DNA of 64,000 nucleotides from Haliotis rufescens (GCF_023055435.1 NW_025964361.1:30132001-30196000); one strand, 5' to 3'. Counted from the first letter of the stretch, positions 3,241 to 64,000 are shown. Notes: generated by a model from the letters alone, not told the origin. A program made the numbers and translations.

Positions 3241-3325
3241 TTTCCGCGGACACTTGGTGTCATCACTGATTTTCAGTGATCCATTCATATAATTTTCACC
3301 TTGTTTGCCTTTTCGTTGGGAAAAC
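3241..3325 (+). repeat. Unclassified interspersed repeat (other copies ~13337-13450 and ~53961-54080)
   Basis: Shared tttc(c)gcg(g/a)acac(t/c)tggtgtcatcac..attttcagtgat..attcatataa.tttcac at three loci. Confidence 0.6.
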
Positions 3326-4199: not shown

Positions 4200-5448
4200 A
4201 ACAAGAGGCCCATAAGGCCCGTATCGCTCACTGGATATTTACGCAATCATGACAAAATATACATTTGCATTGTACATGTATATAATACTGCAAAAATTTC
4301 GTAATTTTGACTCTGTCAGCATTTAAAAGGGGTGGATGGCAAATCTAACAGCATGAACGTGTACTTCTCTAGATACAAATGTAGCATAAAGATCTGAAAC
4401 GTTTCCATGTTATGATCCAGGATCTAAGTTTCCAGAGGCAAGGCTGGCGAATCCTATTGGCATAAATGTATTATTCTCTTCATAACAAACAAATGTAAAC
4501 AATGTGTCTGTTTATTATAGGGTGGGGATAATATCGGTTTGCATGTAATGGCCAAGGTTCTAACTCTTTTGGGAGTGCCAGTCCTGGTAGCATGGATGTA
4601 TTGTCTAATGAAGATGAGCATGGGCATATAGGATGGGTATCACTCCAGAATTACTCTTTTTAGCCCCGCCCCCCAGTCCCGGTTTTTCTCCAATTTGAAT
4701 CCCACCATTGGAGAATGCTTCCAACCAAAAATGTTTTATATCTCTCTCTTAGTTCAAGAGAAGAAGTCGTTTAGAGCAATAACGCCAAATTACACCTATT
4801 TCGCCCCGCCCTCAGCCCATTGGGGGGTGATCAACCCTTCTTCCATTTGTACAATTTTGAATCCTCACCACCGGAGAATGCTTCCAATCATATATGGTTG
4901 ATATTTATCTCTTATTTGTAGAGAAGAAGTCGTTTGAAGCAATAACGCCAAATTATCCTTATTTCGCCCCGCCCTCATCCCCTTGGTTGTGCCAGCCCCA
5001 CCATTTGTACAATTTTGAATCCTCACCTCCGGAGAATGCTTCCAACCAAATATGGTTGATATCTATCTCTTAGTTCCAGAGAAGAAGTTGCTTAAAGCAT
5101 AATAGCCAAATTTCCCCTATTTGGCCCCGCCCCTCAGCCCCCTGGGGGTCGGCCACCACCATTTGTTTAATTTAGAATCCTCACCACCGGAGAATGCTTC
5201 CAACCAAATATGGTTGATATCCATCTCTTTGTTCCAGATAAGAAGTCGTTTAAAGCATTATAGCCAAATTAACCCTATTTGGCCCCGGTCCTCAGTCCCC
5301 TTGGGGTCAGCGCTACCATTTGTACAATTTTAATTTCCGATTAGTGCTTCATGAGAAGAAGTCGTTTGAAAAAAATTGTTGCGGGACGGACGACGGAAGC
5401 CACGGTATGGCATAAGTTCACCTTGGTCCTTCGGACCAGGTGAGCTAA
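4200..5448 (-). mobile_element. Non-autonomous Helentron-type element (HINE/DINE-1/CvA-like) with internal tandem array
   Basis: Minus strand starts tagctcacctgGTCCgaaGGACcaaggtgaact (subTIR plus hairpin), then ccgtcgtccgtcc, then 4-5 tandem units, and ends cagtgagcgatacgGGCCttatgGGCCtcttgtt (subTIR plus 3' palindrome). Confidence 0.8.
4660..5335. repeat. Tandem array of ~157-163 bp units (4-5 copies) inside the Helentron-type element
   Basis: gaatcc..acc.ccggagaatgcttccaacc recurs at about 4697, 4860, 5017 and 5174. Confidence 0.9.
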
Positions 5449-6089
5449 CATCAACGTTAAGCGAAGCTAGGTTCGGGCCAAGTGGCAGTTCTACCAGCAA
5501 GATAAATTCAAGTAGTTCACATACTGCTTTGTTTGTCACATTCCATGATATATATATATATATCGACCCGGCAGTTCATGGTCACCCTAAAGAGACAAGA
5601 GTCCACACGGGACACTAATTACAACGTCTAGACCTAGACCTAATGACCAGAGTCTCTCCATAAGACCAATGCTCACATTAATCTTCCTACCCAAAATGTT
5701 AATGGATGTTAGGGTTAGATTTAATGTCCAGCCCGCTACTTTAGTGTCGATAAGTGTGTGATTCTCAAATATGTATTAATATTACGCACTTGTAGTTGTG
5801 TGGACATTTCTGCGTATAGACTTCACAGATACATAAAAATTGAGAATAAGAAAACGCGATGTTGAAACATACATTGCAGTTAAATGTAAAAGGAAAGCCT
5901 ATATTGATTGTGGGCGAAAACGTGCACCACTTTTGTGAAACCCTGGTATATCAATGTGGTAAGGATCTTAATCGGACAATTCGTGAATTCGAATGAACGC
6001 CCGTCCCCACGCTTGCAGCTAAATATACCACGATGAGAGAGTAATGGCACCCTAGGACGCGAGAGGAACTCTAAACTTATGTTTCACAA

Positions 6090-8188: not shown

Positions 8189-10271
8189 ACATGTCAAACC
8201 AATTGAGTAAGTTCCAATGGTGCTTTGGAGGAGACTTGAAAGCGGGGTTAATATGTTTTTTACAGGGGGGGGGGGGGCAAATATTTGTACAAGTATCACT
8301 TGTCCCCAACTTGTATTTTCATGAGTCAAATAAAACACCGGCTGGCTACGGCACTGCTGTTGAAAATCACAACCAACCCTACTTGAAATATGATCGTCAA
8401 TGCCATATATTTAATTTCCGTCACAAACATAGTTGATCGAAAAATAAACGCTGATAGGGCCAAGGCAACAGGTGGCTGTGAAATCGACGTGTCTTCCGTC
8501 ATATAACTCCTCCATGTGCACCTGCCTTCGAAATTCGCGCTAGCCCATAAGCCCGAGACTACTAGATATATAGTGCTGAAGACAAGTAAAAATCAAATGA
8601 TGGTAGTCCTTGACTAGTAGCATTTGGGGGCAATAATTCTAAGCAGTTCTCAATGCTTCAATTTTGCTACGAATTGGAACTGAATATAACTGACAGGAAA
8701 TTTAAACAGTAAACAGTCTTTTCGCGTCCAAGCCGGGATAACTACAAACTCTGAGCACAGATGAATGTTTATACTATTTCTCTTGACTCATCTAAATATC
8801 TAAGGTTGCATAGACATATTTCAATTTGGGATATACCAGAGCTATAGATAGCTTTTGTTTATTTGGGTATTTTACCCAGAGGTTTGATTTTGATAGGGTA
8901 TCCACAAGTTTAAGAGGGTATTCAATTTGTTGTACCCACCTGTTTCGTGATATTTAGGTATTTAACTTAAAACCTGTTTCGTAACAATCCCTGTAAATCT
9001 TTTAAGCAATTGTGAATAGTTGTATACCCATCTGCATCTGCTTGCGGCTCCCCACCGGGAAGCCATTTTTTTTGTTTACAAAACCTAGCATTGTAGGAAA
9101 GGCACTATTAACTACCAATCAGCGACTGATTAAGATACAACATGTACATTGACTAGGCACGATATGTTTTTCAATTGGCATCTATCAGTTTGTCTGTCGC
9201 AGAAGCATTTCCGAATGCAACTGTCGGGAACTGATCTTGGCGATCGGCTGATGCACAATCATTTTATCTAACAGTTGTAATATAGCAATCGTTTCATCTA
9301 CTAGTTATAATATTCGCATTCATTTTATTTCAATAGCGTATTTATAGTTTTTGTTCCGTATTTGATACTCTAGGTTTTGTTTTGTCTGCGTATTTCAGTT
9401 TATGTAATGCGTATTTTACGCAAATACGCAGCTTATATCGAAATCCGTATACTGCTTATATCGATTGTCGATTAAAACAAAGTAGCAGCTGTGTTGTTCT
9501 GGTCTCGAATATTACAGCACAAATCTGATCAATGTCGAGACAAATGAAATATACAAGACCACAATGGACGTGCATGTTTGCGATAACGATTTTCTGACGC
9601 TGTAACACGCGAATCATACATCCGTGACGGCCTTATAATGAGGCCGCCAGGGGTGTCAAGATGTTGCTTGGCAGTATTATTCGATATGAGTAAATGTCTC
9701 TATCTAAGTCTTGTGGACATCTACTCAAAAGCTGATTAGTGCTGAAAGTAATTTCTTGATGTCCAAAATATCTATGCATAAGTTTTATATATCTGTAGAT
9801 ATTGGCTGTCAGCTGTGTCCGATGTACTTGCTAGCCTCACCGGTGTAGTAGTGAAGTTGGTTGTGCGTCGCATTTAATATATCAATCTAACTCACTCACT
9901 CAAATAAATCTGTTACTTAGAGCGACCAAAACCATTGCAAACTGTTTTATTATATGAATAAACTCCATAAAATACAATCTGCTACGGAAACAGATAAGTA
10001 TTTCAGTCATAATATCCAGCGGAATTAATTAATATTCAAATAGACAGTTTTTCAATACTTTAACGGGTTATTTATCACTACATAAATACGAGAAACATCG
10101 TTAACTCGAAGTTCCTAGACAAGGAGGGAGTGCGAGTGGAGTTATCAAGCAATCGAGCAAAGGGAGTGTCGATATAAGAATACACTGCCTTCTACTATTG
10201 TTGTCAAGTAACATCGTCATTGACGTAAAAGCGTGCAAGAATTTTAGTGCAACAATTTACATTAAAACGTC

Positions 10272-12446: not shown

Positions 12447-12688
12447 GATCCGTGAAGTTCCGTGTTAGAATAGGTCTTCAGCAACCATGCTTGCCATACA
12501 AGGCGATTATGCTTGTCGTAAGAGGCGTTTAGCGGGATCGGGGGGTCAGGCTTGCTGTCATCGTATTTCAATTGCGTAAATCGATGCTCATGATATCAAT
12601 CACTGGATTGTCTGATCCAGACTCGATTATTTACAGACCGTCGTCATAGGTGGAATATTGCTGAGTGCGGCGTTAAACAACAAACAAA
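12447..12688 (+). mobile_element. Family A retroposon
   Basis: Head gatccgtgaagttccgtgttagaataggtcttcagc through tail cggcgttaaacaacaaac. Confidence 0.9.
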
Positions 12689-15662: not shown

Positions 15663-17527
15663 TACATGTTGCATATTCACGACAAAGAAGCATTTAACCA
15701 TATTCACCCATTACATCTGTTAATCAACTTGAATAGTACACCAAGTCATCATGTGCTGGCTGACATACGAAATGATTTACAGCATCGTCCAACACAGGTG
15801 GCCCATCACGACCAGCACAGCACCAGGCTTATGCACAAATGTAGTCATCATCATGATGCAGCACACTGGAGCTCCATCAATATAGTGAAAACTACGCCAG
15901 CTGGTGGGTGTACTATAATACACAGTTCAGCGATCACGATACATAAACGTGCTTATTTGATCTTGTAGAACAAGGGTTCTTGCAATTCTAATACATGTGT
16001 GAGAGGTTGATTTAACACAGCCATATACATTGCAGCTTCAGAAACCACTATGGAAATCGAACCCGGTCTTCGGCGTGAAGTGCGTAAACTTTGACCACTT
16101 GCTACCTCAGCGCCCGATACAGTATAGGAGAGGTGTATTGATCCGCGAACAGAATATAGACCTGGTTTTATATTAATAATTTAAACACATCTTTAAAAAC
16201 CTATATGGCATCTTTCATCATCGCTAACATGATCGTATGTAATAAGTTTCAGAAGACATAGAACGGCACGAGTTGAAGAACGATTAACAGGAGAGCTTAG
16301 GTGAGGACCGGGGTCTAATGAAGCCATGCTGGTTCTGCCCTACTTCCTGGCGGCGTAGGTCTCCATCAAGGAAGTAGTCGTGGCCGACGTCCGTGGAGCT
16401 GTCACGTCTCCATTGACATCACAGACAAGTGTTGGTGATCTCCTTGAACGCCCGCAGGTGAGATTCGATTAGGCGCAAATTCAGCATTTAAGGCAGGTTT
16501 CGACGACAACGAACATGCAGTGCGAAAGACTGTTCGCCTATCGCGAAACCCGTCAAAATGACCGATAATCCGTGTTTTGTTCCGTTGTCTGTCCATCCAA
16601 ACCAGCTTCAGTCTTTCCATCATTTTATATACATTCGTGCATGTCACATAGGTAGCCTGGATACATTACCTGTTTTAATTAACTCTGTAGTACACGCCTA
16701 CAATCTGTCTCGGAGTCGTTTTCTGTCACCAGTAAGAGCCAGATAACTTTGCCTCCAAGTACAACAGAGAATATGTCCCGTTATTCACGAAAAACCACTA
16801 CTTGATCCTTTCTGGAAAATGTCGTCTGCTTCCAATTCAAACTGTCGTCTGCTACTAGTACATTTAAAGCCCGTCGTCTGCAATTGCCACTAATTTAACA
16901 TATCGTCTTCTGTCAGACCGACTAACAAGGTTCTACAACAGAGCACTATCTAAATCTATCGCAACTCAATAATAAGCCTGCTCTCTGATATAGCGCCCTG
17001 TTTTGACCGTCTACTTTGGACCCAGACCCAATGCAGACCTGTCGTCCGTTGCCGGACCTATCAACCAGTGAATGCTGCTTTCCAACAGACGTTCAGCTTG
17101 GGCAGAGATCACTCGGCAGTCCGGATGCCCGTATCGATTGTATTGCTCCAGCCATATGTTACCTGCTTTATAATCTGTCGCTTTTGGTCGCCTTATTTAC
17201 CCTATTGTCATCGCAAGCAAACCCACACAGCATACAACAGTTGCAAGCGAAAATAAAATGAGAGAGAAATCCAGTCAAATTCAATCAAGGTTGGAGACAA
17301 ACGTTAGTAGCGTTACTGGCGTTGTCATGGCACGCGACAGAAACAATGCTTCGTAGTCGAAAAACTCAATTAACTTTTGGCAGCCCGTTCACTCAGACCA
17401 TATGGTAGGATAACCAGTACTGGAATAGCTTTAATGTTTAGATAAGCTTAGTCAAAACCCCACAGCTGGGGTAGAACTGGTGTAGAAATGTACAAAGTTG
17501 AATCTATACTAGTGCAGCTATACTTAC

Positions 17528-41957: not shown

Positions 41958-42219
41958 TATATCAGATGGCAGGAAAACATAATCAGACGATTCCACCTGT
42001 CCCTTTGAAGCCCGTACCAGCGTTTGAAGAGGTATTCAGTCGGGTCATTAGTGATTGTGTTGGTCTGTTGCCTAAAACAAAGTCTGGTAGCAGGTATTTA
42101 TTGACAATCATATGCGCTTCAAACAGATTCCCAGAAGCCATTTCATTGAGGAAAATTACTCCGCCAGTTATCGTTTGGCTTTGATCAAGTTTATCATCAT
42201 GGTTGCCTCTAAGTAGTTC

Positions 42220-42491
42220 GACTCGTGAAGATCCGGGGTAGAATAGGTCTTCAGCAAACCATGCTTGTCGTAAAAGGCGACTATGCTTGTCGTAAGAGGA
42301 GACTGGAACATGATCGGGTGGTCAGGCTCGCTGACTTGGTAGCTCCTTGTCATCGATCCCAATTGCGAGGATCGATGCTCATGATATCAATCACTGGAAT
42401 TGTCTGGTCCAGACACGATTATTTACAGACCGCCGTCATCTAGCTGGAATATTGGAGTGCGGCGGTAAGCAACAAACAAACCAAACCAAAC
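42220..42491 (+). mobile_element. Family A retroposon nested in the integrase core
   Basis: 11-bp TSD ctaagtagttc. Confidence 0.95.
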
Positions 42492-43187
42492 CTAAGTAGT
42501 TCAATCTGAACAAGGGTCGAATGCCATGTCAGGGTTGTTTCTGGTCATGTAAGAGTTGGGATATAGTGTCTATCACCTTGAGTCACAAGGTGCATCGGAG
42601 AGATATGAAGTCAGTCCAGGAATCCTTAGGGTTCAGTCCCCTTGAAATAGTCACACGGTTAGAGGACAACGTAAGCATTTGTGATGGAGCAATGGCTTAA
42701 TGACCAATCAGATTAGAACTTACAAAACCATGTGTTTCCTTTCCAATAGACTTCTGGGGAAAGCCGACGATGACAAAAGTTACAAAGATCAAAATTTCAG
42801 TCCTGGCGATCGGGTTTTGGTGTTGCTACCCAACCCTGGTCAACCACTGAGTGCTGGATACCATGGTCCTAATGTGATTGATAAGAAGATCAGTGAAACT
42901 GACCACATTGTCCAAACTCCGGGCTGTTGAAAACATTTGAATATGATAAATGGATATCATAACAGGTCTGAATAAGTGCCACCAAGATTCCTGTTGAATC
43001 TGACTTATATGAGTGCAATTCTGAATTAACCACTGATCATGTGATGTTTGTGAAGGTTAGCTCTAGGCTAAAAAATTCTGATGTGTTAAACAACCTTGAT
43101 GAGAAATTAACTAATCTTACTCCAGGCAACAGAGACAGTTGTCAGAGGTAATTCACGATTTTGTCCATTTATTTCCGGATGTACCTG

Positions 43188-43908
43188 CCATGTGAAGGTC
43201 TTCAGCAACCCATGCTTGCTGTTAAAGGCGCCTATGCTTGTCGTAAGAGGCGACTAATGGGATCGGTTGGTCAGGCTCGCAGACTTGGTTGATGCATGTC
43301 ATTGATCCAATTTGCGTGGATCGATGCTCATGATATTAATCACTGGATTGTCTGGTCCAGACTCGATTATTTACAGATCGCCGTCATATAGCAGGAATAT
43401 TGCTTGGTGCCGCGTAAAACAACCAACCAACCAACCTACCTGCGACGAATCTCTTCAGCACCGAGATCGCCACATGGGTTTTGAAATTGTGTTCAGCAGC
43501 TTTCTATTGATCTATGTCAGGGTACACATCTACACCTATGAGGAATCTAACCCGGTCTTACACGTGAGGAGTACCTTCTGATACTGTGCCACCTGGTATG
43601 GGATACCCCTTTATGGCTTGAGATAAGATGCAGCTGTCCTACCTGAATTTCGTGTTCTGCCTGAATGTGTTCCGTTGCTTTCTTTCCCAGAGTGATGACA
43701 GCTATGGAACTCGGTCATCATGCATGGTTCTGTGTTGCTCGTACTCTAAAATAAAGAATTGTTCGTCCAGAGAGAAACCTACAAACACTTGGGATTACAA
43801 TTGTAGGAAGAACGAGTGAGTCAGGTGGGTTTAACTCTGAACAGTTTTTCAGCAAATACCATCATAAAGCTGGAATATTGCTGAGTGCGGCGTTAAACAA
43901 CCAACCAA
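43188..43908 (+). mobile_element. Composite insertion: family A copy, ~415 bp transduced flank, second family A tail
   Basis: 13-bp TSD ccggatgtacctg at 43175 and 43909; 43439-43854 matches 53038-53462. Confidence 0.9.
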
Positions 43909-45869
43909 CCGGATGTACCTGGTCGAGCAGACCGACTTAATCATGCCGTAGATGTGTATGATGAAGTGCCTGTGCAACACCATCCATATCACATGAACCC
44001 AATCATCTTCCGAAAAAGAAGTCAAGTATATGTTGTAGAACGACACCATTAAACCAAGTGGCAGCGCCTGGTGTTCACCATGCATCCTGGTAGCCAAGCC
44101 TGACAACGCCTATCGATGTTGAAATCGTTATCAAAAACTGCCTCGGTCCCCATACTAAGAATTGACGACTTTATTGACAGAATTAGTCAAGTAAGGTTTG
44201 TGAGTAGGTTTGACCTTTTGAGTGGGTATTACTATATCCCGCTAAATGAGCTTGCTGAGAAGCTTTCTGCATTTATTACACCAACAACATCAAAATCAAT
44301 AAAGCTGTGCCATTTGGGTTAAAAGTGCACCAGCTACCTTTCCACCCCTTATGCATGACGTCACTTCAGGCCTACAAGGTATAGAGACATACACCGAAAA
44401 TGTTATAAGCCATGCAGTGGAGTGGGATGATCATTTGAAGAGGATCCGTGCCTTTTGTGAACGAGTATCACAGGTAAAATTGACTAAATCTTGCAACATA
44501 TGAATTTGCTGCCACGTGTTGTGTTCTTAGGACATGTAGTCGGTCTCGGTCACGTACAACTGATCAAAGGAAAGGTAGAAGCAGCTGCCAATTCCCAGTT
44601 CCAGCAAACCAAAATAAAGTTATAAGATTTCTGGGTATGACTGGTTACTCCAGAAAATGTTATCATCATTTCTCTACAGTAGTGGCCCCCTCTCACTTAT
44701 TTGATGGCAAAAAAGACGAAATGTTTTCGGGATAACCACTGCCAGGCAGCTTTTGAAAGGGTAAAATGACCCCTCTCACTTATTTGATGGCAAAAAAGAC
44801 GAAATGTTTTTGGGAATTCCCAGTCATGAAAGCACAAGATTTGGAGAAAACGTTTAAACTGACAATTGGTGCAAGTGACATTGGTGCTGATGGTGTTTTG
44901 TTACAGGAAGAAGTTTGAGAAGCCACAGAAAAATTACTCTACAATTGAGAAAGAAATTCTTGCTTTGATTTTGTCATTGCAACAGTTTCCCACTGAAAAG
45001 TTCACTGATCACAATCAACTGACTTTTCCTCGTGAGATGAAGAACAAAAATCATAGATTGATTAGGTAGAGTTTCTCTTTACAATGGTTTAATTTTGAGA
45101 TCAAGCATATCAACAACAAAGACAATGGAATTGCGGATGTTCTATCTGGAGTCAGTTGAATGGATGAGGACACAAATGATGTTTTGTTAATTATGCAGGA
45201 AGCATGTATTTTATGTTCTTTTAATAGTGTGTCGGGTCAACTTTCTCCTTGCAGTTGTCCATTTCAAAGAATGTTTTCACTGCACTCGAAGAGCCTTATG
45301 TGTAAGAGATAATGTTAGTGGCTAAGACTGTTGGGGGTCTGTTTGTGGTGGTTGTCCGTGGCAGCAATTGGCTAAACTACTAGTAACAAATTAGCAAGTG
45401 CTGTCGTGGCCAAAATGGAACAGCAGTGAACATTGAGCTTTCCTGAATGGCTTCGTTCTAGAACTAGGTTTATCTGCCCTTATGGTGTAGATGAACATGG
45501 CAGACTTGATCGTACAAGACATGTCTGTTTGGGACAGTTTCTGAAGGCTGGCTGTATCTAATGAGAGCAACACGGGGACGATTCCAGGCTTTATCGATCT
45601 CACTTGTTTCTAATGTACCTTTTAAGTGCAATTTGGATACCCAAACTGGGCAAAAGAAGGTATACACCTGACAGCTGGATTTGTAAAAAACTACAAACGT
45701 TATGAAAACGTTTGTAGGGTGAAAACAGTCTAGAAAACCCTGCATACTTAAGGTCAAAAACACGAAATGATACCCTTATTAAATACATCAACATCGAATA
45801 ACTATTTGTTATTTGTTTCACATAAGCCACCATCAAATATTGGTGTATATTTTCTTTTGCTCGTCCATC

Positions 45870-46170
45870 ACAACAATTACTTTCCCATACCGCGGTTGTT
45901 GTAACTATTACTTCCATAATAAAAAATTACTTACTCATCCTAAAGTTGCTGTTACCACTACTATGACTTCCATAATAAACAATTACTTTCTCATACCACA
46001 GTTGCTGTTACTATTACTTCCATAATAAACAATTACTTTCTCATACCACAGTTGCTGTTACTATTACTTCCATAATAAACAATTCATTTCTCATACCACA
46101 GTTGCTGTTGCTATAACTTCCATAATAAACAATTAATTTCTCATACCACAGTTGCTGTTGCCATTATACC
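45870..46170. repeat. Minisatellite, ~50-bp unit, ~6 copies
   Basis: ttccataataaacaattactttctcataccacagttgctgttactattac. Confidence 0.95.
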
Positions 46171-46214
46171 TTTTATTTTTAGTACCACCACTACTAGTTG
46201 AGTGTCCGTGGAAC

Positions 46215-46320
46215 ATTGCTCATGATGTCAATCACTGGATTGTCTGTGCCAGACTCGATTATTTCTAGACTGTCGTTATGCAGCTGGAAGAGCCCTGACT
46301 GAAGTGTAAAACAACAAACT
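46215..46320 (+). mobile_element. Family A 3' fragment
   Basis: tgctcatgatgtcaatcactggattgtctg...aaacaacaaac. Confidence 0.8.
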
Positions 46321-46474
46321 TCACTGCTACTGTTTCTGCTTCTACAACGCATGCCACATCCTACAAACGCTCCCGAACCAGCTGTTGCTACCATTACCGT
46401 TACTACTCGTTTAACAGTAGGTATTAATACTGATATTAACAACAAAACGATGACATCACTGACACAGTCAATTT

Positions 46475-46855
46475 TCTACAAGCACCACCTCAGCAACGAC
46501 TTCCACTACACCAACAACCACAACAAATCACACGACCTCAGCAACGACTTCCACCTCACCAACCACCACTACAAGTTATATTAACTTAGCAACGACATCC
46601 ACTACACCAACCACCACTACAAATGATACTACCACAGCAACGACTTCCACTACACCAACTACGACAACAAATTTTACCGCCTCACCAACGACGTCTACCT
46701 CACCAACCGCCAGTACAAATTATACTACCTCAGCAACGACTTCCACTACACTAACTACGACAACAAATTTTACTACCTCAGTAACGACGTCCACCTCACC
46801 AACCGCCAGTACAAGATAACTACCTAGTTTCCACTACACCAACTACGACAACACG
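46475..46855. repeat. Minisatellite, ~48-bp A/C-rich unit, ~8 copies
   Basis: cctcagcaacgacttccactacaccaac recurs. Confidence 0.9.
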
Positions 46856-47752
46856 TGGTGCCACCACGGATTGGTAAGCCGCTACTCCAACATTAATCAT
46901 GGCAATGATGATGATGAAAATGATGGAGATGATAATGATGATTGTATCTACAACCCATCTGTTTCGTGTGCGACATATCTGAAAGGCGGCGAGACGAGAC
47001 GGTGTGCTGCCCCGATGTAACAGGTGTTCGGTGTTAATAACATCTCTCCTGTCAGGGCCGGTACTACTATTGCCTGTAACGCTGAAATTACATTTGAAGC
47101 TATTACTACACCACCAAAAACATAAAATATCTCCTCCTATTGTATAAGATAGGACATTACCGTTGGAGACTATAAATAAATCAAGATATTGTCAGTGAAA
47201 ATGTGCAATTGAGAGGGCAGAGAATAGGCGAAACATCCAGTTACAATCATTTCGAGAGCAAGCACCACTTAAACTACCAATACATGTTGCCGTTTTGGGG
47301 CGGTGTTTATATTGCAATATCGAGTGTCGGTGACTATGTCAAACTGTTTTATTACTGTGTTTGGCTTTACTTAATTGTATATAGCCAGTTATCAAATATC
47401 AACCTTCTCGACGTAGCCAGGGAGCTTGGATTATGTAGTCCCTGGGGAGCTGATGATGACACCACCAACATCAACAATGATAATGGTAACAATAATAATG
47501 ATGATGATTATAATGATATTTTTACTAAAGCTTATGATAGGGATATTTGTAAGTATCATAATAATTCTCATATTTCCACTACTACGACTACTACTACTAC
47601 GACGAGGACGACGACTTCTACAACTATTCCATCATGGCAAAATAGGTCCCTCCTACTGTTCAATAAGCACAATATTATAGCAACTCCGCCCACCGCCACC
47701 CTAACCAATGGCAACCGAACAGCACCATCACCGCTACACCTACTGCACACAC

Positions 47753-47846
47753 CTCGACGTGTACAGAGAAGGATGCTCCAAGCTGCGGTCAACGTCACAC
47801 CTAGCAGGAAACTCGTCACGCTGCTCCGTGACATGTGGCGTGACAT
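47753..47846 (-). CDS. Candidate first coding exon: signal peptide or membrane anchor, phase-1 donor
   Basis: MSRHMSRSSVTSFLLGVTLTAAWSILLCTRR then GAG|gtgtgt; possible acceptors at 47931 or 47947; GC-rich unique island between simple repeats. Confidence 0.35.
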
Positions 47847-48109
47847 CCGGGTTCCCTACAGCCGTGGCGTTATCGCTTTGTCGCTTCTACAACACAGCCT
47901 GTCGGCCGTCACTGAATCAAACCCATCGAACTAAAAAAAACACTTCCTGAAAGTGTCTGACATTTTGTGTGTCGTGTAGAATTGAATGTCAGTAAGTGCG
48001 TTTAACAACGTCGCACACGTTTCGCAGCCTATTTTGGTATCATCCCGTGTGGCGAAATCCAACCCCCATCAGCCATCTAACCCATCCTCTCATCACTCCC
48101 ACCCTCCTC

Positions 48110-49220
48110 TCTTCTTTACCCATCCTAACCTCATCTCACCCACCCTAACCTCAGCACCACCCTAACCTCATCACCACCACCCTAACCTCATCACCATCCG
48201 TCCACACATCACCAGCACCCTACCCTCACCACAACCACACTAACCCCATCACCATCACCTAACCTCATCACCAAACCTAACCTCATCACCATCACCTAAC
48301 CTCATCAATACCACCTGACCTCATCACCAAACCTAACCTCATCACCATCACCATCACCTAACCACATCACCTAACCTCATCACCACCACCTAACCTCATC
48401 ACCATCACCTAACCTCATCACTTCCATCTAACCTCAGCACCACCCTAACCTCATCACCACCACCCTAACCTCATCACCACCCGTCCACACATCACCAGCA
48501 CCCTACCCTCACCACAACCACACTAACCCCATCACCATCACCTAACCTCATCACCATCACCTAACCTCATCACCAAACTTAACCTCATCACCATCCCCTT
48601 ACCTCATCAATACCACCTGACCTCATCACCAAACCTAACCTCATCACCATCACCATCACCTAACCACATCACCTAACCTCATCACCACCACCTAACCTCA
48701 TCACCATCACCTAACCTCATCACTTCCATCTAACCTCATCACCACCACCTAACCTCATCACCACCACCTAACCTCATCACTTCCACCTAACCTCATCACC
48801 ACCACCTAACCTCATCACTTCCACCTAACCTCATCACCATCAACTAACCTCATCACTTCCACCTAACCTCACCACCACCACCTAACCTCATCAACACCAC
48901 CTAACCTCATCACCACCACCTAACCTCATCACTTCCACCTAACTTCATCACCACAACCTAACCTCATCACCACCACCTAACCTCATCACCACCACCTAAC
49001 CTCATCACCATCACCTAACCTCATCACCACCACCTGACCTCATCACCATCACCTAACATCATCACCATCACCTGACCTCATCACCATCACCTAACCTCAT
49101 CACCACCACCTGACCTCATCACCATCACCTAACATCATCACCATCACCTGACCTCATCACCAAACCTAACCTCATCAACAAACCTAACCTCATCACCTAA
49201 CCACCTCACCACCACCCCTA
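48110..49220. repeat. Minisatellite, ~16-19-bp unit (acctaacctcatcaccatc), with a ~270-bp higher-order duplication
   Basis: Visible directly; the block ccgtccacacatcaccagcaccctaccctcaccacaaccacac occurs at ~48198 and ~48481. Confidence 0.95.
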
Positions 49221-50929
49221 CAGTCAGCACCCCCACCCTCCTCTATCACACTCGCCCATATCTACGACCACACAGAATGGTGCGCCGTGTTTGTGCGGTT
49301 TTGAGTTTCAGACTGCCTGTATTGAGATTGAAGTCATGTCGACCCTTATTAACAACACTGACAATATCCGTTTATTAAACATTCAAAACAAATCATATCA
49401 CTCGTAACAGGCTCCTATGTTTTACAACAAAACAAATAAGGAATAATAAATCGTTTTAAGCGAAAAGGTTAAGATAGTGATCAAGCTGTGTTTATTAAAA
49501 TTCTGCGGATGATCATGTTTCTTCAGCAAAGAATCGTTTTCGTGCTGACGCAATAAACTTGTTCGCACATGAGATCTACGAACAAAGTTGAATAGAGCTT
49601 AATTCGCATCTTATGCAAATGCCCTACCAGCGGGTGAGTGGTATTTGCACTCTAGAACTGGGGGACTGCTCACTTTCTCTGTGTGGGGCTTAATTCTAAT
49701 AAAATATCTCGTAGTTACGGCTGATTTAATATAATAAAACATGCGGCGATATTGCCCGGCATTTATAGTGGTGTTTTCCAAATCCAGGAATTAACAGAGC
49801 TCAGTATAAATTTCGACAGCTGGCGATTAGTGTTAATAACAGTTGACATTTGGGGGACACTCCATTTGTCAGAACCCCAAGGGAGGTAACCCTTGTTGAC
49901 AGTCTAACCGGATATCGATCGGCTGATATCTGGCGAGTCTCTCGCCAAATTGCGAGTGACACAAGATATGATTTACCCCGACGTCGCACCATGCAATATT
50001 CCGTCTGGTAGGCATACAAATAGCAGAATTGATTGCCCATCTAATGTAATTCGCCAAATCCTTTTGAGGAATTTCAAATCGATTGTTTTTCTTGAGAAAG
50101 GGACAAAAATTCGAGATGTTCCTATCATGAAATACGACTAAACGCAACACGGGTCCATGGCGGCATGATCAAAGAGTAAGTGGCTCCCGCTTCAGGGAAT
50201 GAAAGTCGGCCGGCTGCCTGCCGCTCTTTGAATGTAGCAATTGCGTAGAGGCAGATAGTTTATATCAACAAGTGTGCCTTTTGGCATAGTGTTCAGACAA
50301 CTATTCTCCTCGGTCAGCCTTGGGCGAGAAATTTATATATGCAAGAATAAGCTGATGTTTGATAAAAGTAGTACCGGAACGGCCATGGTAAGGCATAACG
50401 AGATTTATTGTCGAAATTGCTTGGGTTTATTTTGATATCTCAGACAACCAAATTAGGATAATGGAGGGTGTTTTGGCGTGAGCGAATAATGTCACCTCAA
50501 AGACGGAAAAAAGTGCAGACATGGATGGTATTTTAAACAAAAAACTCTAAAACCTTACAATATTGTCTTTTTAAAAGAAAAAGAAAAAAAAGGTAAACGA
50601 ATTCTGCAAAAACGGTTTCAGTAATGCTTGGTTCTTATCTTGGGTAAATAATTGAATAATTAGGTGGTTAGGTGTACCCCTGATAGAGGCAAGTACCCTA
50701 GAGGAGATCTGTGAAAGAGGTCGCTTCCTCTGCCCTGCTCATACAGCTCGTCATGATGGCTCTGGTTAATGTCGGTGGTAGTGTGCACGAATAACTTTTC
50801 TTGTGAAATGCTGATATCTTCTTACTTTTTCCTTTAAACAACAGATCTAAAATGTCATATAGTGACAGGGGTGTTTTGGTACACATCCTGATATTTGAAT
50901 GTGTGTGCGCTGTTGCAGCCAACTTTCTT

Positions 50930-51271
50930 CACTCGCTCTGTCATACTCTTGGTCTCCCTCTTTCTGACCTCTCCTCCATCTGTATCGCTCTCCTTTTCTC
51001 CCCCACTCTCTCTGTCGCTCTTTCGCTTCTACTCACTCCCCTCTTTGTGCCATACTGTCTCTTTTTTCCCTTTCTCTCTCCTCCTCCCACCCCTCTCTGT
51101 GCCATACCCTCTCTCCCCTCTCTCTTCCCACCCCTCTCTGCCATACTCTCTCGCGCTCTCTCTGTCATACTCTCTGTCCTCCACTCTGTCTGTAGCCCCC
51201 CACCTCTCTGAGTGCTATACTCGCTCTCTCAACCCTCTCAATATATCCATATAACCACCTCTCTCTCTCTT

Positions 51272-51317
<46 letters not shown>

Positions 51318-51320
51318 CAC
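50930..51320. repeat. Polypyrimidine / (CT)n tract
   Basis: Visible directly. Confidence 0.95.
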
Positions 51321-52769
51321 TCAAGTATAAGTAGCTAATTTTTTATATTATGAAAGTGACGATATAAGTAATTACAGCCCGTGTAAAGTCAAGTCTGAAC
51401 AACATTATGAAATATATATAAAACAAAATGTTCCAAATATTATAAATAAAAAACTAGACGATTGGTGATATTCACCAGCTGTGGCTGCTAGTGTGGGTTG
51501 TTCATTTCCTCCATGAGTAGGACTGACCGTTGGTGAAAAAGAAGAATGAATTTCAGTTTCCGAGTTTGCGATAATCGATCAACAAACGATGATCGATATG
51601 CCCACAAAGGTCAGGTGGCAGCAGCGCATAACATCCGCTCAAACTCGGTTGATGTCACAGAAAAAAATGTAATATCGTTTGCCTCAATCAAATTTATTGC
51701 AATCCATTGTTAGTGGCGTCAAGTTGTTTTCGTAATGACATTATAGTTGTAGTTTTTGCATGAAAAATTGAAAGCGATAGCTGTTTTGGCCAATGACAGC
51801 GGAATCTGGGGAGCGAATCCCACCCAGCAGCCCCGCGGGCTAAACACCAGCCTGGCATTGGCGGCAACTGAGAGCATCTCAATACTCATAAAAAATGTGG
51901 ATGATGTATACCAGAGCTGGATCATAAGTCAGAAAAATAGATTTTTTTATACATTCATAGATACGAAATGAATAAAACGTTAGATGAGATTAAAAAATAG
52001 CCGTTGTCAATATTCACCACAGCGCAATTACAAATAACAAGCTCAAAGCAAAAAACTCCAATCGGGCCCTTTTTAAATAAAAACAACGCGAAATAATTCG
52101 AACCTGCAATGTGAGTTACGAGACAGGTAGACACTCATCGTAGGTTCAACGGGGTTGAAACTGCAATGTTATATTCAATGATACCAGAGAAGTGAAATTA
52201 TGAATATAGTGGTACAGTGAGACCGTCCGTCTGCTCTTGATAACATCGGCAATATATCAGGAAGGTAATGTGCATGCGTGCATATCTAATGCATCATTTT
52301 GAATAAAGGGCATGATTATGCATGTCTGTCCTGAATTAATTCAACGACTAATAATTAATTTTATTCCAGAACAATTATCCAATAATATTATCAAGACAGA
52401 CGCAAAGTTGCCAATTGAAACCATTTGTGTTTTTACACGTTTTGAGAAAATGACATAACATATAAATATATAAAGGAATCAGTGTTAGATTTTCAAACTG
52501 AACCTGACCCACTTTCCTTGCAAACCATTTTGTCTTTCTCTGAAGGGACAAGCAGGGACATATTTTTCAAAGAATATTTCCATTTCTGTGCGATCGTATA
52601 TACACATAAATCTGGTGTATCATTTTGCTTTTTCAACTTCCATAATTTTAAATGCAACTACATTTCAGTTGTGTGCACACATATTGTAAGGTTTTTTTGC
52701 CATCCAAATTCCATTAACCGTTGTGACCTTCCTTCCGATCTTCACATCTGCATGCTCCTGCGACGAATC

Positions 52770-53037
52770 GATCCGTGAAGATCCGGGGTAGAATAGGTCT
52801 TCAGCAACCCATTCCTGCCGTAAAAGGCGACTCTGCTTGTCGTAAAAGGCGACTGACGGGATCGGTTGGTCAGGCTCGCTGACTTGGTTGATGCATGTCA
52901 TCGATCCTAATTGCGTGGATCGATCCTCATGATATCAATCAATGGTTTGTCTGGTCCAGACTAGATTATATACAGATCACCGTCATATAGTTGGAATATT
53001 GCTGGGTACGGCGCAAAACAACAAACAAACAAACCAA
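52770..53037 (+). mobile_element. Family A retroposon, full length (likely transduction source)
   Basis: 13-bp TSD cctgcgacgaatc at 52757 and 53038. Confidence 0.95.
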
Positions 53038-53691
53038 CCTGCGACGAATCTCTTTAGCACCGAAATCGCCACATGGGTTTTTAAAATTGTGTTCAGCAGC
53101 TTTCTATTGAGCCATGTCAGGGTACACATCTACACATATGAGGAATCTAACCCGGTCTTACACGTGAGGAGTACCTTCTGATACTGTTGTATGGGATACC
53201 CCTCTATGGCTTGAGATAAGATGCAGCTGTCCTACCTGACTGGTTCTTCCTGACTGCGTTCCGTTGCTTTCTTTCTCAGAGTGATGGCAGCTGTGGAACT
53301 CGGTCATCATGCTTGGTTCTGTGTTGCTCGTACTCTAAAATAAAGAATTGTTCGTCAAGAGAGAAACCTACAATCACTTGCATCATGAATACACGAGTGG
53401 GATTACAGTTGTAGCAAGAACGAGTGAGTGAGGTGGGTTTAACTCCGAACAGTTTTTCAGCATATAACGCTTTGTGATAAAAAGCAGGATGTAAAACAGA
53501 GCCTTGGCTTATACGACTTTGTCAAGCTAAATCAGCAACGTCATGCCTGACAGTTGATATCCCAGGTGGTGACCAATGCCATTTTGACCAACCGATCCCC
53601 TTTTAGTCACCTATGAGAAACATAAGGTCCCTGCATAATGTGATTCACGGTTGATACCGGAATGGTTGGACATGTTAGTCCATTTCGCGAA

Positions 53692-53960
53692 GGCCCGTGA
53701 AGATTCCGGGGTAGAATAGGTCTTCAGCAACCCATGCTTGCCGTAAAAGGCGACTATGCTTGTCGTAAAAGGCGACTAACGGGATCGGGTGGTCAGGCTC
53801 GCTGACTTGGTTGATGCATGTCATCGATTCCAATTGCGTGGATCGATGCTCATGATGTCAATCACTGGATTGTCTGGTCCAGACTCGATTATTTACAGAC
53901 CGCCGTCATATAGCTGGAATATTGCTGAGTGCGGCGTTAAACAACAAACCAACCAACCAA
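53692..53960 (+). mobile_element. Family A retroposon, full length, young
   Basis: 12-bp TSD ccatttcgcgaa. Confidence 0.95.
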
Positions 53961-55296
53961 CCATTTCGCGAACACCTGGTGTCATCACAGATTTTCAGTG
54001 ATAAATTCATATAACTTTCACAGCTATTTTGCCTTTACGCCTAATGGAATCGGCGGATAATCAAGACAGGTTATTCTCTAGCGTTGTTTAATATTTTGGC
54101 AGCTTTAGTGTAGGACGGTTGTATTCGTCATCCATGAGTAAATAAAACTTGATTGCCCCTTCCAGAACAATTTAAGTTCTGGTGCAGCTTTTACCTTTTA
54201 GCTTTTACTTTGGTTGAGGCATATATGTTCATGGAGTAGATATAGTTTATTGTCTGATTTATCAGAATAGCGCGTCGATGGTCGACATCATTTTAGCTAC
54301 AGAACATCCAGATGTTCAAACATCACAAAACATAATCATTAGTCTTCATAACAAATGTAAATAATACGTCCCGGCGTTCTTGTAAACGAATAAAACGGAG
54401 GAGAATGATATGTGTACTTACTGCATCTAATAGCTCCCCTCACCGCATAATGACACTCCTATTTTACAGTCATTCCATACACCCGCCTCGAGAGAAACCC
54501 ACAAGAAATAAATATCAAATAATCCGGAATTATTTGTGACCAGATTTTAGAAATATTCTCTGAGGAAATATGCACTAACGATTACTGATTAAATAAAACA
54601 GAGGGCAATACTCTGCATTGTAGCAAAATGGCGTCGGGGCTCTAGAGGACTATTTCTTAGCCATATGTCCCCCTGAGGTATTGGCTGGTCGAAAAATCCA
54701 TATCAGTTTTCGTTGAGGTTCCAGCGCCACAAAGGGCCTACTGGAGTGTGTGAATGAGGTTTCTCAACAAACCCATGTCTATCTAGTGTGCCTCGTGCTG
54801 CAAGGAGAAGAAGGGCAATTGGGACTGTTGATGACTCCTTCAACCTATGATAGATAGGGAACGGTAATAGATTTCAAGGGCGAAACTGGTTAGAGGTTGA
54901 CCTTCTAACCAAACCTCGTGACGGTTATATTTTGAATTAGCCATCGGGGTGTTGGTTGAATAATGATGGTGTATTATTTGTTGATAAAACGTTGAATACA
55001 ACGTTTTTGGAGATACACCAGAAACTATTGCAGTATAAAATTTGAATAACTGCAGGTATCGTATATGGTAAGTTGTTACAAGATTAATTTCAAATGGCCG
55101 TCTTGTATCGCGTGTAGAATATGTTACCGTTTTCCTTGCGATTAGTCGAACCTGCTTTTTTCATTTCGTCAGGAAAATGTAAGGCAAACATTTTTTAGTT
55201 GTACAACATGAAAACTTTCAATCATACACGGGGCGAATGTAAAAATTCACAATTGAGGATGTCAACCACTGTTTTCGGGCATCTTCTTAGATTGTC

Positions 55297-56240: not shown

Positions 56241-56414
56241 TGAGTGAGTGAGTGAGTGAGTATGGTTTAACGCCGCTTTTAGCAATATTCCAGCGATATC
56301 ACGGCGGGGGACACCTTAAATGGTCTTCACACATTGTACCCATGTCGGGAATCGAACCCGGGTCTTCGACGTGACGAGCGAACGCTTTCACCACTAGGCT
56401 ACCCGACCGCCCCG
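56241..56414 (-). mobile_element. Family B SINE, full length
   Basis: 11-bp TSD actgtaccaag; A and B boxes intact. Confidence 0.95.
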
Positions 56415-57357: not shown

Positions 57358-58549
57358 CCGGTATCAATGTATGGAGTGGGAAGCGTAATACTCTAATCAC
57401 GCACACTAAAATAAGACCTCAGTGCGACGGTCAATGCGTGAATAAGGCTTCTATGTTGTAAGGATTTTTGTGAAACATCAAAATCTTTGAAATAGGTATA
57501 CCAGACTCGTGTGTTTGTTGTTTAACGCCCTACAATAAATCAACTGTATACCGATCGGCGACACCGTCTATATCTGATGTGACGATACTGTATGAAAAAA
57601 TGTTTTCTTATTCTGTTTGAGTTTGGAAAACAAATCTCGAATTACGTCACTTGTTATTCTGCCTATTAAGAAAAGAGGATCCAAAATGGCAGTCGACAAT
57701 AAATCGATTTGACAAAATAGACATCAATAGATTGAAAGTTCTGAACCAAACACAAAGCTCAACACAAAAATAGCAAAGCGTTAGTCTTTTTTAAGACGAC
57801 TTCAATGTAGCTTATGACATATTCTTTGTATTCTCGGAATAAAACTCGGAGATATGTTTTAGTACATCTAAAATGGTGACAAGATTAGTTTCACGCTTGT
57901 TGTTATGGTATAAACATTAGATATACTCTACGGTAGTGAACAGACAATGATATTTGAACAATGTGGACGAATGTGGACGAAATACAGTGACGCCGCGTCA
58001 ATCCGGATGGCACCGTTCCCAGTGAATTCATCCAGATTGACAACTGTTAAAGAAGTTCTCGATTTCCCTTTAATTATACATAAACGTTCCGAACAGTAAG
58101 CGTGGTCCGTTTTAGAAACCTCGTAAACACGGACGTTGAGGTGACCCTCCATTTTGGGTAGCTTATGTTTCGCGTATGCCGGTTACGTGAAGCTGTTAAA
58201 TAAAACGTTTTCGTAGCACAGCTCATGTTTTATCAGTGAGACCTTACAACTTGCGACGTTTGCCATTTTTGAGCGCATAACAGTCTTAGACAATATTTAA
58301 CACTTGTAGCTTTTGAAATCAGTCTTATTTGTGCAGTTAATTTTACACGATGAGATACACAATTCAGTATTCAACATATCCGTTAAATTGTAAAGTCAGA
58401 GGTAGGGCTAGCCGGCGACCAAACTACTCAGACACCGTTAACTCGCGACGTTTTCAGAAATTAACTCACGAAACCCAAGTTGTATGTAAATCGTCGCTTT
58501 GTTAACACCAAGTTGCATACAACTTATGTTCGTACTACAAAATGCGAAT

Positions 58550-58750
58550 GCCAGTACCCTGCACAAATTCTCTACCATTCCAGTACTCTAGACCCATTCT
58601 CTACCATTCCAGTACTCTGGACCCATTCTCTACCATTCCAGTACTCTGGACCAATTCTCTACCATTCCAGTACTCTGGACCAATTCTCTACCATTCCAGT
58701 ACTCTGGACCCATTCTCTACCATTCCAGTACTCTGGACACATTCTCTACC
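58550..58750. repeat. Minisatellite, 29-bp unit, ~7 copies
   Basis: cattctctaccattccagtactctggacc. Confidence 0.95.
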
Positions 58751-59015
58751 AAAACTTCCTATCAAAGTGCATGACGCTAAAAATACCATCCAATCAAATT
58801 ACACGGCTAAGTTATCAAATTCTCTGCTAAGTTCCTAATAAGAGACTTGGATATGGTCACGTCACTTCTGAAACAAAGTTTGAGTAAGAATGGATCCAGG
58901 GAATTGATCATAATAGAATGGAGATAATATACCCAAGATAATCGAAGATGAATGTATTCAGTTACAAGAACGTTGCATTTATGTATTCTTGTCCATGTCT
59001 TCCGCCAGGCATTGG

Positions 59016-59355
59016 AGGTGAGGTGAGGTGAGGTGGGGTGAGGTGAGGTGAGGTGAGGTGAGGTGAGGTGAGGTGAGGTGAGGTGAGGTGAGGTGAGGTG
59101 AGGTGAGGTGAAGTGAGGTGAGGTGAGGTGGGGTGAGGTGAGGTGAATTGAGGTGAGGTGAGGTGAGGTGAATTGAGGTGAGGTGAGGTGAGGTGAGGTG
59201 AGGTGGGGTGAGGTGAGGTGAGGTGAGGCGAGGTGAGGTGAGGTGAGGTGGGGTGAGGTGAGGTGAGGTGAGGTGGGGTGAGGTGAGGTGGGGTGAGGTG
59301 AGGTGAGGTGAGGCGAGGTGAGGTGGGGTGAGGTGAGGTGAGGTGAGGTGAGGTG
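59016..59355. repeat. (GAGGT)n pentanucleotide microsatellite
   Basis: Visible directly; explains ORFs 58807..59376 and 58979..59404. Confidence 0.98.
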
Positions 59356-61395: not shown

Positions 61396-61557
61396 GGGCG
61401 GTCGGGTACCCTAGTGGTTAAAGCGTTCGCTCGTCACGCTGAAGACCCGGGTTCGATTCCCGACACGGGTACAATGTGTGAAGCCCTTTTAAGGTGTCCC
61501 CCGCCGTGATATCGCTGGAATATTGCTAAAAGCGGCGTTAAACCATACTCACTCACT
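61396..61557 (+). mobile_element. Family B SINE, full length, young
   Basis: Perfect 19-bp TSD cacaccctcaatactcccc; near-identical to the 56241-56414 copy. Confidence 0.95.
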
Positions 61558-64000
61558 CACACCCTCAATACTCCCCACACACGAGACAGTCAATTTCACA
61601 ACGACCGCCAGCTTTTCAATTACATGAAACCCGACCGTATCCTTACCCGCCAATTACGATGTTTAGGGGAAATTAAGCAAGAACGTTTGCAATTGTATTG
61701 AGTGCTTGGCTGTTTCAGAAGAAAACTGTTCGCTCGTTAGCCAGTCCATCAGCGTGGAAGAGAAGCATCCAAACCACTTTGGTCGCCTTGCGATCCTCAT
61801 TACAAAAATGATTTGTGTTATTCGTTTAAAAGAATGGATAAATACTTTAATACGCTTCGCCATTAGATGCTAAAACGCATTTGTTGTACGTTCAATAATG
61901 TCTTAATTTCACGGCTTTGCAAAACAATTTGAGTTTTCAACAACCGCCGTTTCCAATTGCCGTGGCATGCACCATAACTATAAAGCTTGCACTGAAAGTT
62001 ATAGGCCTAATTTGCAGGCGGGGGAAAGTCCCCGTGGACACCGTTAGCTTCTTACTTATAATCGGCGTAACACAAGATGGCAGTGTACGCAGGGCTCACT
62101 GATTCTAGCTGAAGTAATCTGACGCATCTGTGCGTTCATGATAATGATAATAAGTATTAGAATCCGTCAATCAACGCTTCTTTACAATACCTTCTTTGAA
62201 GCGGTTGTCTGAAGAAAAAGACTTGGCACCGAAACCAATATCTTTTAATAAGACTGTGGTTGTCGTTGCTGGACATAAAATTCTTCAGCTTAAAGGATTT
62301 GTATCTGGGTCAATATATTTGTTTTTATATGAAATTTTATTGGAATTCGTGGATTATTTTTTTAACTGAAAGTGTCCCGGTGCTTTACTGGAATGATCTG
62401 TCTAAAGCAACAACTTTGCAATTACCGTTACTTTAAATGTGAACTTCAGTTTCAAGTTTGAACCCTCTGTTAAACTTACAAAAAGGCTCACACCATTAAA
62501 GGCCATTTCAGTTTAATTACGAGAGAGATAATTCATCGTAATTTATTTTTTTACAGACATGTACCAAACACAAATAATAGAAAACATTGTTTCTTTTGCG
62601 ACAGAAGGTAAAGTCCTTTATGGAAATGTTCCACGCTATCGTAAGGGAAACTTAAAATAAAAGTGTGAACGATTTCTTTCAGGGCGATGAGCAGTCCGGT
62701 TACTTCTAATAAAAGTTTATCCGGATTTTAATGGGAGAGTTATCTTCCCTTGCCTTAACAATTCTACCATGGCGGATTGAGTTTCAGCTCAGTGAAAAAA
62801 GGTGACAAGGTTAATTTGCAAAATATGTTGCCGATAACGTTATATTTCTTCATGATCCCAAAATGAGGTCAAAATAAGTGCGCCACACCATTCCCAGCAG
62901 CACCTCGTCGCTGCCACTTCTGATTGCCTCGGTCCGTGTGTTCTCAATGTGCCACTCAACTCGGTAATGCTTTTCACAAAGATGAAGTCGGACCCCCATC
63001 CCCCCAATCTAATATGAAAGCCAGGCCACAGAATCAATTCAATTCAATGTCCACTTCCAAATGTCATGAGAGATTAACGATCAGGCTAAATTGAAATATG
63101 ATCAGCTGTGGGGCCGACCGATATGAGGAACTTAATTTCATAAAAGTTACTACCCCGATTACTAATGCCCGATCGGGGCGGGTGGTAGAGACATTGCTGC
63201 CCCAAACAGGGTTGCGTAACGATATCGTGCCTCAAATGTTTCAGCATGGGACTTATTTTCTGTGTCCGTTGGTAGTCGGCATTTAGCATAATGTAATGGA
63301 AAGTGGATGGCTAGCATTGGCGCGGGGTCGAGTTTCGTTTGTGAATGATCACCTGCGTCCTCATCAAAGAGATTTCATGATCTTAACACCAGTTGCCCAT
63401 TCGTGACCAACTCGTGTTATTCCGGGACAAGCCGAATAGCGACTCGTGCCCCTCTCGTGGCCATTTTTGCAACCGGGTTCCGTCTTAGCGCAAACGGGCA
63501 TACCTAAAACAATTGTCAACTCGTTGCGCAATGATTCACATATACTTCCCGATATATTATTTATATTTCAGATGCAATTTAAAGCACATCAGGACATGCG
63601 AAATTATACATTATGATTGAACACATTTAACTGCGTCTTGGGTATATTTTTAGATGCAAGACATATGTAAAAACATAAATTATTTCTGAGGGATTCTTTG
63701 ACGAAGAACTTGAAATCATACGCGCATTCTGATTGGTTTGTCGTATTTTCGCACATAACATTCATCGATAGGGGGACGAGTCTTCTTGCAGGTTACGGAA
63801 AGGGGCGAGTGGTGACGAATGACCAGTTGCCTTTACCGACTAACACGCATGCGCCGAGGGAGCGACATGCACTGGATGCCTATATATGGAAAGGTTCTGT
63901 CAACGTTGCTCATATTGCATATCATACCATCACATATCTTACATATATAAAAGCGTTAATTATAAGATAGAATCATGTATTTCTGTCAAATATCGTCATT

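What the first reader, a model, noticed from the sequence alone, without database searches (positions are those of the whole stretch)
43175..53972. 3' transduction with source and daughter both in the window
Seen: the family A copy at 52770-53037 has its own TSD (cctgcgacgaatc) on both sides. The insert at 43188-43908 has a different TSD (ccggatgtacctg) and contains a family A copy, only the right-hand copy of the source TSD (43439-43451), and ~415 bp matching the source's downstream flank (53038-53462). Inference: a read-through transcript was retrotransposed ~9.6 kb away into the Gmr1 relic. The orphan TSD gives the direction and implies family A can move host sequence.
Basis: partly seen in the sequence, partly recalled or inferred. 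Interest (0 to 1): 0.7.

Follow-up and report, generated by a model that had tools for sequence, protein, structure and literature searches.

The report
Repair copy mimicking SINE transduction
A short jumping element carries 415 bases copied from beside a sister copy 9.6 kb away and ends in a tail from a third copy, so it is likely a DNA-break repair patch copied from the neighbour rather than an RNA read-through jump, and such look-alikes would fool searches for transduction.

Summary
Observation confirmed: both 13-bp TSDs, the orphan TSD and the 415-bp copied flank are there; the flank tag has two hits in the genome; source (S) and daughter (D) share four rare alleles. In 1.864 Mb, five more one-sided SINE-plus-flank pairs were found (four with tags searched genome-wide), all 4.5-23 kb apart, two with 5' flanks, two with remnants of a recipient copy beyond the flank. 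Random retrotransposition cannot give this. Best reading (0.6): a family-A copy at 43188 broke, one end invaded nearby S, copied past its TSD and was end-joined to its own tail: a homology-guided variant of repair-mediated duplication (Pace 2009). Rival (0.25): local retrotransposition with an RNA template switch; the junction sits in the loop of an antisense/sense tail hairpin. Plain 3' transduction is unlikely. An earlier scan note (e1-9808831) saw similar local copying into a SINE elsewhere in this genome.

The parts
43175..43187 (+). Left TSD of the daughter locus
   Evidence: sequence
43188..43438 (+). Family-A body of D; positions >=96 S-derived, first ~76-95 nt possibly from the recipient copy; 16-bp deletion near 5' end
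43439..43451 (+). Orphan copy of S's right TSD
43452..43858 (+). Copied flank (= 53051-53466)
43859..43908 (+). Second family-A tail (consensus position 211 to end), from a third copy; inferred remnant of the recipient
43824..43902 (+). Predicted hairpin of antisense old tail with sense family-A tail; junction in the loop
   Evidence: DNA z -2.26; RNA z -1.74
43909..43921 (+). Right TSD of the daughter locus
42050..45200 (+). Decayed Gypsy-type pol relic interrupted by D (approximate limits); integrase-like part before RT/RNase H
   Evidence: RT_RNaseH E 4e-8, RVT_1 E 0.002; integrase by recalled motif only, no Pfam hit
52757..52769 (+). Left TSD of source S
52770..53037 (+). Source family-A copy S (LP-SINE-like)
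53038..53050 (+). Right TSD of S
53051..53466 (+). Donor flank
53421..53679 (-). Old related repeat ('C'); its tail (53422-53476) ends the donor flank
   Evidence: tail hits, head-like motif; depth peak 53416-53459
53692..53960 (+). Young family-A copy B, 12-bp TSD 53680-53691/53961-53972; not part of the event
   Evidence: 3/256 from consensus; empty site in run X14

Best explanation
The daughter is a family-A SINE copy that holds the 3' part and 415-bp flank of the copy 9.6 kb away, likely patched in by DNA break repair rather than by RNA read-through. Steps: (1, inferred) an ordinary family-A copy R inserted at 43188 and made the 13-bp TSD; (2, inferred) R broke or was trimmed internally; (3, inferred) its left end invaded nearby homologous S and synthesis ran through S's tail, TSD and 415 bp of flank (the copied content is shown); (4, inferred) the new strand was end-joined, almost blunt, to R's remaining tail at position 211 (the foreign tail is shown); (5, likely) S and D flanks kept converting each other afterwards; (6, shown) copy B arrived later. 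The excursion could also have happened while R was being inserted (cDNA invading S); the data do not separate one step from two.
For: Terminal tail is not S's: 7/41 differences, consensus at 235/245; not B's: B 3/256 vs S 19/254, D 17/233 from consensus, B site empty in X14 while flank depth is doubled there. Locality: among 275 3' and 146 5' family-A ends in 1.864 Mb, four other one-sided low-copy pairs (after dropping a tandem duplication and a multicopy host element) plus one, at 4.5, 4.8, 5.0, 10.7, 23.3 kb; chance of all <=23.4 kb given same block 2e-4 (post hoc cut-off), sample is 0.14% of the genome. Tags: 2 loci only, 2 plus one 45-bp partial hit, local pair best among 36 weak family hits; one tag not searched. 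Two pairs capture the 5' flank; one is the mirror of D (remnant 57-189, short templated repeat, source 5' flank, source copy, new TSD; shared alleles stop at 195); another shares alleles only at 24 and 32. The r6 pair repeats D's anatomy (remnant from 171) with a divergence gradient 16/75, 12/106, 10/178. Two local 2-locus copies involve other SINE types, one with no SINE at the donor. In run X12 one contig at double depth spans 53112-53380, ending at two S/D differences, and a 6-bp indel is shared by both paralogs per organism: likely S-D gene conversion. Mechanism precedent: Pace 2009 (PMC2671141); end-joining of failed SDSA in C. elegans (PMC8654963, passages).
Against: No allele with a plain R copy was seen; D appears present in all four runs laid. 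The allele mosaic is weak: best crossover 77-95 has LR ~11 but only 1.4 averaged over positions, and a crossover next to 211 has LR 0.5-4 unless most of S's mutations predate the event. Body-over-flank excess (26/225 vs 23/404, p 0.012) can be explained by flank conversion and is absent in 3 of 5 pairs. The tRNA-headed family B gave no one-sided pair in 179 3' and 124 5' ends (small numbers). The junction in a hairpin loop is not predicted by SDSA/end joining. A 6-nt microhomology was available and not used. 9.6 kb exceeds Pace's 5-kb class. Logan contigs can merge similar paths, so the conversion signal is not proof.
Confidence: 0.6

Rival explanations
1. Local retrotransposition with template switch: RT primed on the tail of an ordinary family-A RNA, which was paired with the antisense old tail at the 3' end of an S read-through RNA, jumped at the duplex end onto that RNA and copied it to S's 5' end; insertion took place near the source.
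For: Junction lies in the loop of the antisense/sense tail hairpin; precise element 5' end; S alleles from 96 to 245; family A has a LINE-type head, proposed Pol II (PMC4758252 section 10), so the T4-T5 runs in the flank need not stop it; r1 daughter ends in bare (ACAA)n; a private haplotype exists in exactly 2 copies 14 kb apart with separate TSDs.
Against: Needs three rare steps; 5'-flank mirrors, recipient-like remnants, bodies unrelated to the donor and a donor without SINE need further switches each; no RNA contig on the flank in the one RNA run laid (X24, 0 laid, weak); the apparent local LINE pair is a high-copy family.
Confidence: 0.25
2. Ordinary transduction from a lost allele of S that carried a 5'-truncated family-A tail at 53467.
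For: Would give D's anatomy in one step.
Against: S-locus contigs of three related organisms cross 53467 without such a tail (X12, X13, X14); does not explain locality or the other pairs.
Confidence: 0.06
3. One reading: read-through from S (possibly to copy B, with later deletion) retrotransposed at random and happened to land 9.6 kb away.
For: New TSD, orphan TSD, S alleles in the body.
Against: Foreign tail; B younger than D; random landing within 10 kb has odds ~1.5e-5 in 1.33 Gb, yet every low-copy pair found is local.
Confidence: 0.04

Closest known systems
Repair-mediated duplication (RD) by capture of proximal DNA, Pace et al. 2009, PMC2671141 (parts 1-3 of 8 and passages read)
   Same: A TE copy interrupted by a 50-600-bp insert found at one other, nearby place; attributed to SDSA; near-blunt or filler junctions; either orientation.
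   Different: Vertebrates only there; proximal class <5 kb; 2-9-nt microhomology priming. Here invasion is likely guided by a paralogous SINE, so donor tail and TSD come along and mimic transduction; their filter (fragments <95% length, ends within 30 bp) would exclude D (full-length piece, 59-nt overlap).
LINE/SVA 3' transduction; Alu transduction not confirmed in 118,489 AluY (bioRxiv 10.1101/2024.04.29.591526, part 1 of 3 read)
   Same: Source TSD plus flank inside a new TSD.
   Different: End is a foreign tail domain, daughters are local, 5' captures as common as 3'.
Chimeric retrocopies by template switch or RNA ligation (U6/L1; bioRxiv 10.1101/2025.02.02.635956, abstract and outline seen)
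   Same: 3' part from a retroelement tail, 5' part from another RNA, one TSD.
   Different: Those are dispersed; here donor is 9.6 kb away and head is the same family.
LP-SINEs Hdi_LP/Hmi_LP (Matetovici 2016, PMC4758252; passages, section 10, supplement hits)
   Same: No tRNA head, TSDs, tandem-repeat tail, length ~255 bp, a GGCGACTAA motif occurs in the supplement alignment.
   Different: Consensus is in a figure and supplement file 1 was not searchable, so identity was not tested; 'transduction' does not occur in that paper's main text.

Membership tests
LINE-mediated 3' transduction | Source element with own TSD; daughter holds source 3' TSD and flank inside a new TSD | tested here: met
LINE-mediated 3' transduction | Daughter's 3' end made from the read-through transcript itself | tested here: not met
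   terminal 50-nt tail domain from a third copy, not S, not B
LINE-mediated 3' transduction | Whole body from the source, as alike as the flank | tested here: inconclusive
   26/225 vs 23/404; crossover LR 1.4 averaged, 11 at best
LINE-mediated 3' transduction | Daughters dispersed in the genome | tested here: not met
   all 6 low-copy pairs at 4.5-23 kb
LINE-mediated 3' transduction | Read-through RNA | tested here: inconclusive
   1 RNA-guess run laid, 0 contigs
Repair-mediated duplication (Pace 2009) | Insert inside a TE, present at only one other place | tested here: met
Repair-mediated duplication (Pace 2009) | Donor within 5 kb | tested here: not met
   9.6 kb; sister cases 4.5-23 kb
Repair-mediated duplication (Pace 2009) | No new poly-A or TSD at the captured segment's own border; microhomology, filler or deletion | tested here: inconclusive
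   no TSD or tail at 43858/9; junction blunt or 1 nt; mirror case has microhomology plus short repeat
Repair-mediated duplication (Pace 2009) | Orthologous uninterrupted TE (pre-capture state) | tested here: inconclusive
   contigs break at the repeat; none shows a plain copy
LP-SINE | 5' ~70 bp homologous to Nimb-17_LMi 5' UTR | not testable with these tools
   reference sequences in figure; only a 9-nt motif found in supplement file 4
LP-SINE | TSDs and tandem-repeat tail, no tRNA head | tested here: met
   39 of 106 near-full copies with direct TSD; no Rfam family hit
Gmr1-like LTR element (host relic) | Integrase before RT-RNase H | tested here: inconclusive
   RT/RNase H by Pfam; integrase by recalled motif, no Pfam hit

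The most novel reading that the evidence does not exclude
Family A retrotransposes preferentially next to its source, and pairing between sense and antisense Nimb-type tails guides the reverse transcriptase from one RNA to another, so that a stringent SINE shuffles neighbouring host DNA over 5-25 kb, on the order of a thousand times per genome.
Probability: 0.2. Interest if true: 0.72.

Novelty: new variant of a known kind. Interest (0 to 1): 0.42.

Why it matters
A TSD-bounded SINE plus orphan TSD plus unique flank is the standard proof of 3' transduction. Here it likely arises without RNA. If so, transduction counts and source-element maps in SINE-rich genomes need a distance and terminal-remnant filter, and repair-mediated duplication extends to an invertebrate in a homology-guided form that the original screen excluded. 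Two such pairs in 1.6 Mb of unselected blocks suggest roughly 200-6,000 per genome (my Poisson extrapolation). No function of the copied flank is shown.

Tried and rejected
High-copy subfamily or distant source: rejected; best whole-genome hits to D's body (92-93%, 40 of 5,177 candidates scored) are near-consensus copies and say nothing on descent. Read-through to copy B: rejected. Splicing as the cause of the junction: no GT donor at 53467 (sequence). Known ribozyme in family A: no Rfam hit. Long-range S-tail/C-tail pairing in the donor: not favoured (z +0.73). Local LINE pair as proof of local retrotransposition: high-copy family, 1,494 candidates. Inter-contig pair r8/r4: host element with 590 candidates. 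r2 122576/123807 and family-B pairs: tandem or segmental duplications. r2 55094/73918 dropped (flank is a tandem repeat, 13 hits). Displaced-TSD scan found 0 of 106 and missed D itself, so it is not used. Excess allele sharing at <=20 kb over all pairs is slight (6/719 vs 58/12235). No host gene found: 14 of 36 ORFs scanned, 0 Pfam hits. Laying on the whole 11.9 kb was swamped by repeats. RNA run X24 gave no cover. Paper searches found no report of SINE-guided repair mimicking transduction; the library is incomplete, and PMC358520 was not held.

Full report
Observation. Source S (52770-53037) and daughter D (43188-43908) each have their own 13-bp TSD; D holds S's right TSD (43439-43451) and 43452-43858 matches 53051-53466. 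The flank tag has 2 matches in the 1.33-Gb genome. Family A is an abundant ~260-270-bp SINE-like repeat (358 hits in 1.864 Mb) without tRNA head or Rfam match; it resembles the LP-SINEs of PMC4758252 (identity not testable). D interrupts a decayed Gypsy-type pol relic (RT/RNase H; integrase recalled only).

What was missed. D ends in a second family-A tail (43859-43908, consensus 211 onward). It differs from S's tail at 7 of 41 sites and from B at 2 of 41, and lacks G235 and A245 that S and D's first tail share. Copy B (53692-53960) could in principle have supplied it, but B is 3/256 from consensus against 19/254 for S and 17/233 for D (Poisson p 0.07 at the flank rate, 1.5e-4 at the body rate), and run X14 shows B's empty site while carrying two single-depth flank contigs and one of double depth. 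S-locus contigs of X12, X13 and X14 cross 53467 with no tail. So a third copy made D's right end and TSD.

Descent. S and D are the only 2 of 242 copies with T96, T207, G235, A245; 10 of 7,503 pairs share four or more rare alleles. Body divergence is 26/225, flank 23/404 (p 0.012). A crossover model puts the best switch at 77-95 (LR about 11; 1.4 averaged), so a recipient-derived 5' part is possible, not shown. Related organisms give a second explanation for the younger-looking flank: in X12 one contig of double depth covers 53112-53380 and ends at two S/D differences, and a 6-bp insertion is in that contig but in neither paralog of the window or of X14: likely gene conversion, with the caveat that these contigs can merge paths.

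Context survey. I joined nine blocks (1.864 Mb) and searched flanks of 275 3' and 146 5' family-A ends. Besides D, one search listed six pairs; one is a tandem duplication, one a multicopy host element. The four left, plus one short pair, lie 4.5, 4.8, 5.0, 10.7 and 23.3 kb apart; three are in the block around the window, two in 1.6 Mb of unselected blocks. Four tags were searched genome-wide and each has the local partner as sole or best match. Anatomy: one is D's mirror (recipient piece 57-189, short templated repeat with microhomology, 113 bp of donor 5' flank, donor copy, new TSD; shared alleles end at 195); one 5' capture shares alleles only at 24 and 32; r6 repeats D (remnant from 171; divergence 16/75, 12/106, 10/178; no TSD found); r1 ends in bare (ACAA)n with body 28/235 vs flank 6/106. 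Self-comparison of the first 1.064 Mb added two 2-locus local copies beside other SINE types, one whose donor has only a microsatellite. Against generality: tRNA-headed family B gave no one-sided pair in 303 ends. A private haplotype in exactly two copies 14 kb apart fits either conversion or local retrotransposition.

Mechanism. Random insertion cannot give six local pairs in 0.14% of the genome. Break repair explains locality, 5' and 3' captures, remnants and allele gradients: one end of a broken copy invades a nearby paralog, runs past its TSD and is end-joined to the other end (inferred; compare PMC2671141, and PMC8654963 passages; one-sided invasion seen only as a cited title). Unexplained by it: the junction sits in the loop of a predicted hairpin between the antisense tail of the old element C and the sense tail (z -2.26 DNA, -1.74 RNA). 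An RNA duplex guiding an RT jump would predict that, which keeps local retrotransposition alive at about 0.25.

Comparison and novelty. It works like repair-mediated duplication but fails that class's 5-kb and abutting-fragment criteria; it looks like 3' transduction but fails the end-formation and dispersal features. Confirmed SINE transductions are scarce: none among 118,489 AluY. Nine paper searches found no description of this mimicry (9 papers hold 'repair-mediated duplication', listing only for eight); supplement file 1 of PMC4758252 and bioRxiv supplements were not seen. Earlier scan notes (unchecked): e1-9808831 describes local copying into a SINE in this genome; e1-10133478 also files family A near LP-SINEs; they call the animal an abalone, which I did not test. 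Verdict: real, new variant of a known kind, interest 0.42.

Noticed in passing
window 12447-12688 and L012 (about 8490-8750): Two family-A copies 14 kb apart, separate TSDs, share a private haplotype found exactly twice in the genome: full-length conversion or local retrotransposition.
   Followed up: partly
L007:3248-3761 vs L007:7969-8335: Mirror event: 5' flank of an inverted copy captured inside a remnant family-A copy with new TSD.
   Followed up: yes
L169:2245-2900 vs L171:5570-6115: Same anatomy as D at 23 kb; remnant later split by a tRNA-SINE insertion.
   Followed up: partly
L082:6661-6890 vs L084:2878-3098: tRNA-SINE tail followed by 167 bp copied from beside a (TATG)n microsatellite 16 kb away that has no SINE.
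   Followed up: partly
L008 about 1830-2160: Family-A copy whose internal 22-bp unit is amplified about 14 times into a minisatellite.
   Followed up: no
window 16484-16561 (-): miR-981 precursor (Rfam RF01926, 56 bits).
   Followed up: no
window 53421-53679 (-): Old repeat with family-A-like head motif and CACT-repeat tail, interrupted by copy B; a likely older LP-SINE relative.
   Followed up: partly
window 61397-61560, 56241-56412: tRNA-headed SINE (family B) sharing the ~45-nt tail with family A, so likely the same LINE partner.
   Followed up: partly
L018:4827-5221: Young LINE 3' region with at least 37 identical copies among 40 scored: recently active family.
   Followed up: no
L059:4085-4397 and L061:4466-4778: Two 97%-identical 313-bp MITE-like copies 20.7 kb apart.
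   Followed up: no
window 48089-49240, 58548-59355, 4685-5331: Minisatellite arrays.
   Followed up: no
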